Below are positions 49,201 to 52,200 of a stretch of DNA of 64,000 bases, in pieces. The position numbers and the translations under genes were made by a program. Position 1 is the first letter of the stretch, and each line of letters starts with the position of its first letter. Below the pieces are notes generated by a model that did no database searches, was not told the DNA's origin, and saw only the letters and a list, made by a program, of their open reading frames with translations. Source of the DNA: the human T2T-CHM13v2.0 reference genome, Homo sapiens; assembly GCF_009914755.1 (NCBI RefSeq), contig NC_060938.1; one strand, given 5' to 3'.

Positions 49201-52200
49201 GACAGTAATTTTTTCCGACCAGAGCCTTGTGCCTGTTGCTTCTCGTAGGAATCTATTGGCAGAAAGATGAATGGGTTAAGAGTAGGAAGGGAAGTCTTCT
49301 AGATTCAGATAAAAATAAAGCACGGCCTTGAGATAATCATTCTAATGCAAAGCAGAATGTTTAATGTTCAGTTTTAGATTTTGGATTTCCATTTTTAAAG
49401 TCAAACTAATAAATATTCAGCCTATTAACAATTTTGGTAGTATTTTTCAAAATAAGAAATATAAGACTTGCATCTTACATTCAGATGAACAAGCCAATGT
49501 TCCTGTAGTTAATAAATGTTGTTTTGATGACAGAGGTGAATAATGTGGATTACCAGGAACATATGTGGGTTGACCACACAGTCTTATGGCTCCAGAAGGC
49601 TTCCCTTTCCTTGAGCAGGGTCTCCCAGTCTCTGGAGAGAATTAGTACTATTCTCAAATGGTGCAGGGCCTGTAGAGGTAAGTTTTTCTAACACTGTTTT
49701 TACTATATCTTTCCCAACTCTTAGGCCGTCATTTTATAAGGAAAAGTGAAAACAGTAGTAATATCATTGCCATTCTAGTCCATGAAGCACTCCTTAGGTC
49801 CTTGCCTAACTCTTTGACATTACTCATTGGCCACAGGAGTAAAGACTTTCCTGGTATTTTACCACTTGGTGAACACACTGCCTCATGATGAGGAAAAGGG
49901 TAGCAAAAAAAAACATTTAAAAAGCATATATTGCTTTGGAAAGATAGATTTTTTTTTTTTTTTTTTTTTTTTTTTTTTTTGAGACGGAGTCTCGCTCTGT
50001 CGCCCAGGCTGGAGTGCAGTGGCGGGATCTCGGCTCACTGCAAGCTCCGCCTCCCGGGTTCATGCCATTCTCCTGCCTCAGCCTCCCAAGTAGCTGGGAC
50101 TACAGGCGCCCGCCACTACGCCCGGCTAATTTTTTGTATTTTTAGTAGAGACGGGGTTTCACCGTTTTAGCCGGGATGGTCTCGATCTCCTGACCTCGTG
50201 ATCCACCCGCCTCGGCCTCCCAAAGTGCTGGGATTACAGGCGTGAGCCACCGCGCCCGGCCTGGAAAGATAGATTTAAAAACCAGAGATATTGGTTGTCT
50301 CTGGGGAGAGAAACTAGGAGGGGTGGGGACAAGGATAGAAAGGAGACTTTATTATATTCCCTTTTGTGCCTTTCAGAATTGGATCTATTTGATTATACTG
50401 CATATTCAAAAGCAAACTAAATTTTAAAATCAAAACAGCATACTGGGCCTTCTGAGCTGCCACTGGTCTCTGCCTGATGGAGTGTGGGAAGGCATGCCAA
50501 GATCACCGGGCATATGGAGGGGCAGAGCTTTGTGCTGGATGTCAGAGTAAGCAGCCTATCCTTGCGTACTTCTGGGTTGTTAATAACATCTGGCAAATAT
50601 GCCTCTGACCACATAAATAAGTTCACATCTTTCAATTAGTGAACTACCACATTCTTTCAATTATAACACAGGCCAAACTGCAGGACTTTAGTTTAATTTT
50701 TGAACATACAGTACAAAGTGTGCTTTCTCACAACAGTTGCAGTTAGAAAAGCTCTTTGAGGTGTACTGATTCTGCTGGGAGTCTCAAATTTTTTCTGGCT
50801 GCAAACAGATCCTTACCAATGATAAGCTGCTCCAGACGTATACGCTCATGGGCAGCGTGCTGATCCACCAGCACGAGCAGGTTCCCACCTAGATGAGCAA
50901 GGATTGTGAACTTTGATTCTCAGAGCAAGACGACAACCATCATGTGTGTTGAGGACAGAGAAGACTTAATTCAAACTATCTAACAACAGCATAAGACAAA
51001 ACATTCTGAGGAGTAACAATTGTATCTTTTATTTCCTAAAACATGAAATTATGGGGAAAATGATAGCAAACTTATCCCATATGTTTGAATCCCAGATCCA
51101 ATTCTGAAAGGCACAAAAGGGAATTTAATAAAGTCTCCTTTATACTCTTGCCCCCACCCCTTCTAGTTTCTCTCTCCAGAGATTACCAGTATTACTAATT
51201 TTTATCCTATAAGTTTTATTATTTTCCCCATAATTTCATTTTTTAGGAAACAAAAGGTAAACTAAGAAACTCTTTAGTTCACCAGCATCTCATTTAGAAA
51301 ACATAGTCAGGGCTGGGTGCAGTGTCTCACACCTGTAATCCCAGCACACTGGGAGGCTGAGGCGGGCGGATCATGAGGTCAAGAAATCGAGATCATCCTG
51401 GCCAACATGGTGAAACCCTGTCTCTACTAAAAATACAAAAATTAGCTGGGTGTGGTGGCACGCGCCTGTAGTTCCAGCTACTTGGGAGGCTGAGGCAGGA
51501 GAATCGCTTGAACCCAGGAGGTGTAGGTTGCAGTGAGCCGAGATTGCACCACTGCACTCCAGCCTGGTGACAGAGTGAGACTCCATCTTAAAAAAAAAAA
51601 AAAAGTCAAAGTGGCATTTCCTCAAGTTTGAAGCTTGAATATATAATTCTTATGTTTAAATACTGATTTTGCCTTATTAATTCAACTTTAATATGATAAA
51701 GGATCGTTAAACAACACATTGTTATAATCAGCTAACCTTGGTGTACAAGCTACTTGGAAACCCACAAAGAATGTACTTCCAGTGCACTTTAGATCACAAG
51801 CCGGAGAACGTTTTCTGAAGGGCCAGATCATAAATATTTTAGGCTTTTTGGGCCACACGATTTCTGTCATGCCTACTCAACAATTCTTTTTGAGCCAAAG
51901 CAGCCATAGACAATATGTGAATATCGTAGCTGTGTTCCAATAAAACTTTATTTATGGACACTGAAATACTAATTTCATATAATTTTAATGTGTCAAGAAA
52001 TAGTCTTCTTTTTTTTTCCCAACCATTAAAAAATGTAAAAACCATTCCCATCTCCCTGGCTGTACAGAAAGAGGTGATGCCCAGATTCCCCTCGGGCCAT
52101 GTTTATCCTGCCTTAGACTTGGGCTTCTCAAACGTTCATATCACATACCCCCTGGGGATCTTATTAAAACACAGATTCTGGCTGGGCCTGTGGCTCATGC

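What the first reader, a model, noticed from the sequence alone, without database searches (positions are those of the whole stretch)
49937..51604. A young AluYa5 creates an inverted-Alu bracket around MLH3 exon 7, the endonuclease exon: candidate allele-specific splicing switch for MutL-gamma
Seen: the only Alu in intron 7 is a near-consensus AluYa5 (- strand) about 555 nt from the exon 7 donor. The nearest Alu in intron 6 (51311-51604, + strand) is about 420 nt from the acceptor and points the opposite way, with two more + Alus at 52180 and 52639. In the pre-mRNA they could pair into a duplex of about 280 bp with exon 7 in a loop of about 1050 nt. Exon 7 is 72 nt, in frame, and holds the whole DQHA(X)2E(X)4E motif. 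Established: an exon-7-skipped MLH3 isoform lacking the nuclease motif exists; MutL-gamma nuclease activity is needed for meiotic crossovers and somatic repeat expansion; inverted Alu pairs can drive exon skipping (TBXT) and back-splicing. Inference: this human-specific insertion may shift the ratio of active to nuclease-dead MLH3 and could modify crossover rate or repeat instability if it is polymorphic.
Basis: partly seen in the sequence, partly recalled or inferred. Interest (0 to 1): 0.8.

Follow-up and report, generated by a model that had tools for sequence, protein, structure and literature searches.

The report
Polymorphic AluYa5 beside MLH3 nuclease exon
A young Alu element that only some people carry sits next to the MLH3 exon encoding the DNA-cutting motif, and carriers include that exon slightly less often, but the Alu is more likely a marker of a common haplotype than a splicing switch.

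Summary
A full-length Alu of the Ya lineage lies at 49952-50261 on the minus strand, sense to MLH3. It has a perfect 15-nt target-site duplication and a pure 29-32 nt A tail, and differs at 2 of 281 bases from its lineage majority. It is the only Alu in intron 7. The antisense Alu at 51311-51604 gives a predicted 230-267 bp duplex around exon 7, which encodes [12 protein letters not shown].

This is the common non-reference insertion 14_75499581_INS_ME_ALU (1KGP ALU_umary_ALU_10401) in the supplements of Cao et al. 2020. There it is a GTEx sQTL for exon 7: beta -0.046 in lung (p 6.9e-9) and -0.039 in putamen. That is the predicted direction, but a small effect. CAVIAR called it non-causal in all 7 MLH3 rows I saw. 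The same allele associates in more tissues with two other MLH3 splicing events and with neighbouring genes.

New here: a locus-specific 111-nt non-Alu inverted duplication (50276-50386 / 51094-51204, 87%) already brackets exon 7 on both alleles. The Alu only lengthens that stem.

A common MLH3 sQTL haplotype modifies somatic repeat expansion. Whether the Alu lies on it is untested.

The parts
49937..49951 (.). Left copy of the 15-nt target-site duplication
   Evidence: Perfect direct repeat with 50262-50276 (D2).
49952..49980 (-). Uninterrupted A tail of the Alu (29 nt, up to 32 if the three T of the duplication are counted)
   Evidence: T run 49949-49980 on the plus strand.
49981..50261 (-). 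AluYa-lineage body, 281 nt, sense to MLH3, in intron 7. It is the polymorphic insertion 14_75499581_INS_ME_ALU / ALU_umary_ALU_10401.
   Evidence: Two of 281 differences from the majority of 19 lineage copies. Its 29-mer occurs 2,630 times in the genome. Coordinate mapping to Cao 2020 supplements.
50262..50276 (.). Right copy of the target-site duplication. Its last base equals the published hg19 breakpoint.
   Evidence: Arithmetic: 50817-50276 = 541 = 75500122-75499581.
50276..50386 (.). Intron 7 arm of a locus-specific 111-nt inverted duplication. It abuts the Alu insertion site.
   Evidence: 97 of 111 complementary, no gaps, blast E 1e-36 (I3, 16). Only these two copies were found in the whole genome.
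50817..50888 (-). MLH3 exon 7, 72 nt, holding the DQHA(X)2E(X)4E nuclease motif
   Evidence: Translation. The published exon-skipping morpholinos map to its two junctions (from the text seen).
51094..51204 (.). Intron 6 arm of the 111-nt inverted duplication, 205 nt from the exon 7 acceptor
   Evidence: Duplex -159.4 kcal/mol. 100-101 bp formed in every MFE, with or without the Alu.
51311..51604 (+). Antisense Alu in intron 6, the predicted pairing partner of the AluYa5
   Evidence: 86% identity. Duplex -497 kcal/mol. 267 bp or 230 bp paired with the Ya5 in the MFE.
52180..52461 (+). Second antisense Alu in intron 6, an alternative partner
   Evidence: Duplex -482. 27 bp with the Ya5 in the 5.6-kb MFE.
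52639..52923 (+). Third antisense Alu in intron 6, predicted to be taken by the sense Alu 53776-54044
   Evidence: 242 bp with 53776-54044 in both alleles.
48604..48888 (+). Antisense Alu in intron 8, a possible rival partner that would bracket exon 8 instead
   Evidence: Weaker duplex of -416. Not chosen in the MFE.
53994..54143 (-). 150-nt cassette exon of intron 6 (hg19 75503296-75503445). Its donor lies inside sense Alu 53776-54044. Its inclusion rises with the insertion allele.
   Evidence: AG and GT fit only at these coordinates. sQTL rows: putamen +0.065, muscle +0.051 with p 1e-13, 24 rows held.

Best explanation
The element is a full-length AluYa-lineage retrotransposon copy. It was inserted by target-primed reverse transcription, in sense orientation, into MLH3 intron 7. 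It is a common human presence/absence polymorphism: absent from hg19 and present in T2T-CHM13.

In the pre-mRNA it is predicted to pair with the antisense Alu at 51311-51604. That duplex does not create the first bracket around exon 7. It stacks outside an older, locus-specific 111-nt inverted duplication that forms a stem of about 100 bp around the exon on both alleles.

Exon 7 skipping is therefore most likely set by features shared by both alleles:
- a 72-nt exon;
- an acceptor with a purine-interrupted pyrimidine tract;
- a donor that is complementary to that tract;
- the old stem.

The Alu is most likely a marker of a common MLH3-EIF2B2 haplotype. It adds nothing, or at most a few points, to exon 7 skipping. 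It is not a switch.

Shown: identity, polymorphism, geometry, association and its size. Inferred: that the stems form in cells, that the shared features cause the skipping, and that linked variants rather than the Alu carry the association.
For: - Identity and youth.
- Polymorphism: the hg19 breakpoint maps to window 50276 and hg19 intron 7 is 325 nt shorter. Only pMEIs with allele frequency 0.05-0.95 entered the QTL analysis.
- Small effect: beta -0.046 in lung and -0.039 in putamen.
- Fine-mapping: isCausal and isHighest are False in 7 of 7 MLH3 rows seen.
- Haplotype-wide signals: the intron 6 cassette and exon 5 skipping have 24 rows each, against 11 for exon 7, in the held part of the file. 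There are 81 eQTL-file occurrences of this Alu, including neighbouring genes. The LCL eQTL for ENSG00000119718 is listed with matching statistics from the 1KGP LCL study (table heading).
- The old stem forms in the MFE with and without the Alu: 101 and 100 bp in 2.5 kb, 101 and 100 bp in 5.6 kb, duplex -159.4 kcal/mol.
- The exon 7 donor and acceptor regions pair by 11 bp in both alleles, duplex -18.1 kcal/mol.
- Inverted Alu pairs confined to the flanking introns are common in this gene: 6 of 10 internal exons.
Against: - The direction of the exon 7 association is the one the stem model predicts.
- The Alu is the largest variant near the exon. It adds about 400 kcal/mol of predicted pairing (MFE -1074.6 against -667.8).
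- Its duplexes with the intron 6 Alus are stronger than those of the older sense Alus.
- CAVIAR can drop a true causal insertion if short-read genotypes are noisier than SNP genotypes (my inference).
- I saw only 2 of the 11 exon 7 rows held, and the stored file is cut, so a 'True' flag elsewhere is possible.
- Mice lack both the Alu and natural skipping, but this does not separate the Alu from the old duplication.
- No data here show skipping in people without the Alu.
Confidence: 0.55

Rival explanations
1. The Alu itself causes the modest fall in exon 7 inclusion. Its duplex with the antisense Alu at 51311-51604 stacks on the old 111-bp stem and gives about 370 bp of interrupted dsRNA. This loops out exon 7 and brings the exon 6 donor close to the exon 8 acceptor, which raises the share of nuclease-dead MLH3 isoform 2 by a few points per allele.
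For: - The geometry is correct.
- 230-267 bp are predicted to pair with 51311-51604 rather than with the intron 8 Alu.
- The strongest duplex energies of the neighbourhood belong to this Alu.
- The sQTL sign is negative in both rows seen.
- Analogous polymorphic AluY cases, CD58 and TMEM156, are proposed in a 2026 preprint (passages only).
Against: - Not in the CAVIAR causal set in the rows seen.
- The old stem is already predicted to be saturated on the empty allele, so little marginal effect is expected.
- Associations with distant MLH3 events and with other genes suggest linkage.
- PSI came from transcript-level estimates, not from junction reads.
Confidence: 0.25
2. The exon 7 signal is a by-product of isoform deconvolution. 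SUPPA2 derives PSI from transcript TPM values. A haplotype that changes one minor annotated transcript, such as one carrying the intron 6 cassette or lacking exon 5, would shift the computed exon 7 PSI without any real change at exon 7.
For: - The method is stated in the paper.
- Three MLH3 events move together with similar absolute betas of 0.04-0.065.
- The other two events are significant in more tissue rows: 24 each against 11.
Against: - GeM-HD reports that tags of the common MLH3 haplotype are junction-based GTEx brain sQTLs with p down to 1.1e-14, so real splicing differences exist at the locus. Which junction is affected is not stated.
- I could not see the transcript models.
Confidence: 0.15
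3. One reading: the Alu is an allele-specific switch that largely determines whether active or nuclease-dead MLH3 is made.
For: Only the geometry and the sign of the association.
Against: - Betas are -0.04 to -0.05 per allele.
- Both isoforms are described as the two major human isoforms. They appear in the cell model and patient lines described in the passages I read, with no genotype information.
- The old stem is present on both alleles.
Confidence: 0.03

Closest known systems
TBXT intron 6 AluY paired with AluSx1, causing exon 6 skipping in hominoids (recalled from Xia et al. 2024, not read here)
   Same: A young sense/antisense Alu pair lies in the two introns flanking a short in-frame exon. 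The proposed action is a stem-loop that traps the exon.
   Different: The TBXT insertion is fixed and was tested experimentally. The MLH3 insertion is polymorphic, has only a small statistical effect, has not been tested, and adds to an older non-Alu stem.
Polymorphic intronic AluY insertions at CD58 and TMEM156, proposed to form IRAlu duplexes that alter splicing (preprint PMC13648404, passages seen)
   Same: A common human Alu presence/absence variant that is an sQTL, with a pre-existing inverted Alu as the predicted partner.
   Different: Those were fine-mapped or colocalised with GWAS signals. The MLH3 Alu was flagged non-causal by CAVIAR in the rows I saw. MLH3 is not mentioned in that text (0 occurrences).
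Oligonucleotide-forced MLH3 exon 7 skipping (Halabi 2018 PMC5934671; Roy 2021 PMC8053082; passages seen)
   Same: The same exon and the same product, isoform 2 without the nuclease motif. These papers show that shifting the ratio lowers GAA and CAG expansion.
   Different: The shifts there were large and drug-induced. Neither paper mentions Alu (0 occurrences in each).
Common MLH3 modifier haplotype of somatic repeat expansion: 14ABEM1 in the GeM-HD preprint 10.1101/2024.06.10.597797, and chr14:75002247G>C in Hujoel 2026 PMC12935551
   Same: The same gene, a common allele (about 0.46-0.5), and described as an MLH3 splicing QTL. The tag SNV lies about 30 kb from the Alu by my coordinate arithmetic.
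   Different: Linkage between that haplotype and the Alu was not tested here. Neither text mentions Alu. The only 'exon 7' in the preprint is MED15's, and neither text names the MLH3 splicing event affected.

Membership tests
AluYa5 subfamily | Dimeric Alu of about 281 nt with an A tail, flanked by a target-site duplication | tested here: met
   281-nt body, 29-32 nt pure A tail, perfect 15-nt duplication. Both monomers match the SRP model.
AluYa5 subfamily | Lineage-diagnostic substitutions and low copy number. The five diagnostic positions are recalled, not taken from a call. | tested here: met
   A 29-mer with two lineage-specific bases occurs 2,630 times in the genome. There are 2 of 281 differences from the majority of 19 such copies. 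I read the other three recalled positions by eye in the sequence printed. No RepeatMasker library was available, so Ya5 against Ya4 or Ya8 is not formally separated.
Polymorphic non-reference mobile element insertion | Present in some human genomes and absent in others at the same breakpoint | tested here: met
   The window has it. hg19 lacks exactly 325 nt in intron 7. The MELT call 14_75499581_INS_ME_ALU maps to window 50276 and carries the 1KGP id ALU_umary_ALU_10401. I did not see its allele frequency beyond the 0.05-0.95 filter.
IRAlu-mediated exon skipping | Oppositely oriented Alus in the two introns that flank the exon | tested here: met
   Minus-strand Alu 555 nt downstream and plus-strand Alu 422 nt upstream in the transcript.
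IRAlu-mediated exon skipping | The two Alus pair with each other rather than with other partners | tested here: inconclusive
   The MFE of 2.5 kb and of 5.6 kb pairs them by 267 and 230 bp. This is thermodynamic prediction only. I looked up no editing or crosslinking data.
IRAlu-mediated exon skipping | Exon inclusion depends on the presence of the Alu | tested here: inconclusive
   Association is present, with beta -0.046 and -0.039. It is flagged non-causal by CAVIAR in the rows seen, and PSI is transcript-derived.
IRAlu-mediated exon skipping | Removing or inverting one Alu restores inclusion | not testable with these tools
   Needs minigenes or genome editing.
MutL-type endonuclease motif exon | DQHA(X)2E(X)4E lies wholly within the exon, and the exon length is a multiple of 3 | tested here: met
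   [12 protein letters not shown] in the 72-nt exon.

The most novel reading that the evidence does not exclude
The AluYa5 insertion is the causal variant behind the common MLH3 splicing-QTL haplotype (allele frequency about 0.46-0.5). That haplotype lowers somatic expansion of HTT CAG and AAAG repeats in blood and shows suggestive effects on Huntington's disease landmarks.

Under this reading the Alu lengthens a pre-existing dsRNA stem around exon 7. It thereby raises the share of nuclease-dead MutL-gamma in a tissue-dependent way. The older 111-nt inverted duplication would explain why humans, but not mice, skip this exon at all.
Probability: 0.13. Interest if true: 0.85.

Novelty: new member of a known kind. 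Interest (0 to 1): 0.5.

Why it matters
MLH3's nuclease drives somatic repeat expansion, and forced exon 7 skipping slows it. A common MLH3 haplotype is now a very strong modifier of repeat expansion in biobank data (chi-square 1,778). It is a genome-wide significant modifier of blood HTT CAG expansion (p 4.1e-10) and is described as a splicing QTL. In the passages I read, no splicing event or causal variant is named.

A common 310-nt insertion 555 nt from the nuclease exon, already associated with that exon's inclusion, is a concrete candidate. One linkage look-up and one minigene could test it.

If it proves to be a passenger, which I think more likely, it is still a convenient structural marker of the haplotype. 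The older inverted duplication then becomes the better lead for why human MLH3 makes a nuclease-dead isoform at all.

Tried and rejected
- A whole-genome DNA search with the Alu body returned nothing, because common words are masked. I replaced it with an exact 29-mer pattern count.
- I tested whether the new Alu frees the donor of the intron 6 cassette exon by competing for antisense Alus, which would explain that exon's positive sQTL. It is not supported. In the 5.6-kb MFE the sense Alu 53776-54044 pairs with 52639-52923 by 242 bp, and the cassette donor is 14 of 14 paired, in both alleles.
- I tested whether the Alu would bracket exon 8 instead. The duplex with the intron 8 Alu is weaker (-416 against -497) and the MFE does not choose it.
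- The 111-nt inverted repeat is not an interspersed repeat family. Only the two arms were found genome-wide. The search is stated to give lower bounds.
- Literature searches that found nothing on this Alu or this inverted repeat:
  - MLH3 + Alu insertion + polymorphic: 0 papers.
  - MLH3 + AluYa5: 1 unrelated title, seen as a listing only.
  - ALU_umary_ALU_10401: 0.
  - EIF2B2 + Alu insertion + eQTL: 0.
  - MLH3 + mobile element insertion: 4 titles seen as listings only, none evidently about it.
  - MLH3 + inverted repeat + exon 7: 0.
- The search on MLH3 and recombination-rate GWAS listed 12 of 32 papers. By title and abstract start these concern livestock, other animals or cross-species comparisons, and none is a human GWAS.
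- Supplement file 8 of Cao 2020 was only the review history.
- Paper reading closed. I therefore did not see the supplement of Spirito et al. 2019, which might give the allele frequency, nor the other 9 exon 7 sQTL rows of Cao 2020.
- CHM13 codon 844 of MLH3 is Pro. On its own this does not place the Alu on either haplotype.
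Full report
**Observation**

The window holds a full-length Alu on the minus strand, which is the sense strand of MLH3.
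- The body is 49981-50261 and the uninterrupted A tail is 49952-49980. The T run on the plus strand is 49949-49980.
- It is flanked by a perfect 15-nt direct repeat, TGGAAAGATAGATTT, at 49937-49951 and 50262-50276.
- In the Alu's orientation the duplication starts with AAA and is preceded by a T run. This fits the L1 endonuclease target, a consensus I recall rather than took from a call.
- blastn with the copy itself finds no other Alu in intron 7, 49253-50816. Rfam SRP-type hits agree.
- The nearest intron 6 Alu is 51311-51604 on the plus strand, with two more at 52180 and 52639.
- Distances to exon 7 are 555 nt and 422 nt. The loop is 1049 nt. Complementarity is 86-89%.
- Exon 7 (50817-50888) is 72 nt and reads [23 protein letters not shown].
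- The two published exon-skipping morpholinos map to its junctions (from the text seen).

**Subfamily and age**

- A 29-mer of the copy that carries two lineage-specific bases occurs 2,630 times in the 3.1-Gb genome. That fits a small young lineage.
- I fetched 20 of those copies and 19 aligned full length. This copy differs from their majority at 2 of 281 positions, both CpG transitions.
- The five Ya5 diagnostic positions are recalled. I read them by eye in the sequence printed.

**It is a known polymorphism and a known sQTL**

The supplements of Cao et al. 2020 (PMC7385971) list 14_75499581_INS_ME_ALU, which has the 1KGP id ALU_umary_ALU_10401. I saw main-text passages, passages of supplement files 4, 6 and 7, and part 1 of files 4, 7 and 8.

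The coordinates match this Alu:
- The skipped-exon event 75498882-75500122:75500193-75505043 has a 72-nt middle exon. Its intron 6 is 4,849 nt, against 4,852 nt in the window.
- hg19 intron 7 is 1,239 nt against 1,564 nt here. The difference of 325 equals 310 nt of Alu plus 15 nt of duplication.
- 75500122 minus 75499581 is 541, and 50817 minus 50276 is also 541. The published breakpoint is therefore the last base of the right duplication copy.

Only pMEIs with allele frequency 0.05-0.95 were tested, so the insertion is common.

Exon 7 rows seen:

| Tissue | t | p | FDR | beta |
|---|---|---|---|---|
| Lung | -5.96 | 6.9e-9 | 1.3e-5 | -0.046 |
| Putamen | -4.41 | 3.0e-5 | 0.066 | -0.039 |

Eleven such rows are held in the stored part of the file, which is cut. 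I saw two of them. With the usual coding (insertion counted as the alternative allele, PSI meaning inclusion; my assumption), carriers include exon 7 slightly less.

The main text of that paper does not discuss MLH3. No paper holds MLH3 together with 'Alu insertion' and 'polymorphic'.

**Evidence against the Alu as the driver**

- isCausal and isHighest (CAVIAR) are False in all 7 MLH3 rows I saw: putamen (3 rows), lung, muscle (2 rows) and pituitary.
- The same allele associates in more tissue rows with two other MLH3 events, each with 24 rows held.
  - One is a 150-nt cassette exon in intron 6: putamen +0.065, muscle +0.051 with p 1e-13.
  - The other is exon 5 skipping: putamen -0.052, muscle -0.040 with p 1e-12.
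- It also associates with expression or splicing of neighbouring genes. There are 81 occurrences of this Alu in the eQTL file. ENSG00000119718 appears in LCL, where matching 1KGP-study statistics are listed, and in putamen. My reading of that id as EIF2B2 is recalled.
- PSI was computed by SUPPA2 from transcript TPM values, not from junction reads. The three MLH3 signals may therefore not be independent.
- The effect is 4-5 points per allele. That is a modifier at most, not a switch.

**A new structural point**

Exon 7 already sits inside a non-Alu inverted repeat.
- The arms are 50276-50386 and 51094-51204. They are 97 of 111 complementary with no gaps, with 707 nt between them.
- They lie 430 nt from the donor and 205 nt from the acceptor.
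- Whole-genome searches with either arm found only these two copies. The counts are lower bounds, but this looks like a locus-specific inverted duplication and not an interspersed repeat.
- K2P between the arms is 0.141, and the differences cluster at the outer end.
- The Alu's duplication abuts the outer end of the intron 7 arm.

Folding predictions:

| Region folded | Allele | Old stem (bp) | Ya5 with 51311 Alu (bp) | MFE (kcal/mol) |
|---|---|---|---|---|
| 2.56 kb | with Alu | 101 | 267 | -1074.6 |
| 2.2 kb | empty | 100 | none | -667.8 |
| 5.6 kb | with Alu | 101 | 230, plus 27 with 52180 | -2288.3 |
| 5.3 kb | empty | 100 | none | -1870.8 |

- In the 5.6-kb fold the sense Alu 53776-54044 takes 52639-52923 on both alleles.
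- The Alu therefore lengthens an existing stem from about 100 bp to about 370 bp of interrupted duplex.
- The old stem alone is worth -159 kcal/mol. A small marginal effect is what I would expect.
- These are thermodynamic predictions, not evidence of pairing in cells.

**Other shared features that could weaken exon 7**

- The last 20 nt before the acceptor are interrupted by purines.
- The donor region is complementary to that tract: 11 bp in the MFE of both alleles, duplex -18.1 kcal/mol.
- Inverted Alu pairs confined to the flanking introns exist for 6 of 10 internal exons examined. Exons 8 and 7 have one only because of this Alu. Exon 5 has a tighter and stronger pair, with a 1,032-nt loop and -508 kcal/mol.
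- Such a bracket is therefore not special in this gene.

**Context from papers**

- Halabi 2018 and Roy 2021 (passages) state four things.
  - Humans express two major isoforms, with and without exon 7.
  - Mice show the exon-containing variant only.
  - Untreated patient fibroblast lines show varying isoform ratios.
  - Forced exon skipping lowers GAA and CAG expansion.
  - Neither paper mentions Alu.
- The GeM-HD preprint (passages) reports a very frequent MLH3 haplotype, 14ABEM1, with allele frequencies near 0.5.
  - It is associated with decreased blood CAG expansion (p 4.1e-10).
  - Its tags are GTEx brain sQTLs, with caudate p 1.1e-14.
- Hujoel 2026 (passages and supplement passages) uses chr14:75002247G>C as 'a top MLH3 splicing QTL'. 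Its allele frequency is 0.465, beta -0.088 and chi-square 1,778.
- Neither text names the MLH3 splicing event or mentions Alu.
- By my coordinate arithmetic that SNV lies about 30 kb from the Alu, near the start of EIF2B2.
- I could not test linkage between it and the Alu.

**Verdict**

- The element and its geometry are real.
- Its polymorphism and its association with exon 7 inclusion are already in public supplementary data.
- The stem-loop mechanism is plausible but untested, and the 'switch' reading is not supported.
- I put 0.55 on passenger or negligible contributor, 0.25 on a modest causal role, 0.15 on a quantification by-product and 0.03 on a switch.
- The kind of mechanism is known from TBXT (recalled) and from CD58 and TMEM156.
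- What is new is the link to the nuclease exon, the older inverted duplication, and the possible tie to the repeat-expansion modifier haplotype.

**Limits**

- Paper reading closed.
- I did not see 9 of the 11 held exon 7 rows, the insertion's allele frequency, or the Spirito 2019 supplement.
- bioRxiv supplements were closed.
- No primate genomes, editing data or population genotypes were available.

Noticed in passing
window 51023-51075 and 51209-51259: A second locus-specific inverted repeat lies inside intron 6 (53 nt, 89%, duplex -51.9 kcal/mol). It encloses the intron 6 arm of the 111-nt duplication. The genome search found no other copies. It would compete with or modulate the cross-exon stem. 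In the MFE it did not form as such.
   Followed up: partly
window 50805-50822 and 50889-50940 (minus strand): The exon 7 donor region is complementary to the pyrimidine tract of its own acceptor: duplex -18.1 kcal/mol, and 11 bp in the MFE of both alleles. This is a possible allele-independent reason for weak exon definition.
   Followed up: partly
window 53994-54143 (minus strand): A 150-nt cassette exon in intron 6 (hg19 75503296-75503445) is not in the RefSeq table supplied. Its donor lies about 50 nt into the sense Alu 53776-54044. Its inclusion rises with the Alu-insertion allele in 24 held tissue rows of Cao 2020.
   Followed up: partly
window 56267-56556 and 57589-57861: Exon 5 (105 nt, in frame) has the tightest and strongest inverted Alu bracket in the gene, with a 1,032-nt loop and -508 kcal/mol. 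Exon 5 skipping is an sQTL event for the same haplotype (24 held rows, negative beta).
   Followed up: partly
L027 / window-equivalent 64545-64547: The CHM13 haplotype that carries the Alu has CCT (Pro) at MLH3 codon 844. I recall this as the site of the common P844L variant rs175080. It may be useful for phasing and is not informative alone.
   Followed up: no
window 37833-37939: A strong U6 snRNA match (91 bits, E 2.4e-22) agrees with the annotated RNU6-689P pseudogene.
   Followed up: no
window 50077-50128 and many other Alus: Sub-threshold Rfam hits to mir-1268, mir-3135 and mir-1972 all fall inside Alu copies. They are Alu-derived look-alikes, not separate genes.
   Followed up: no
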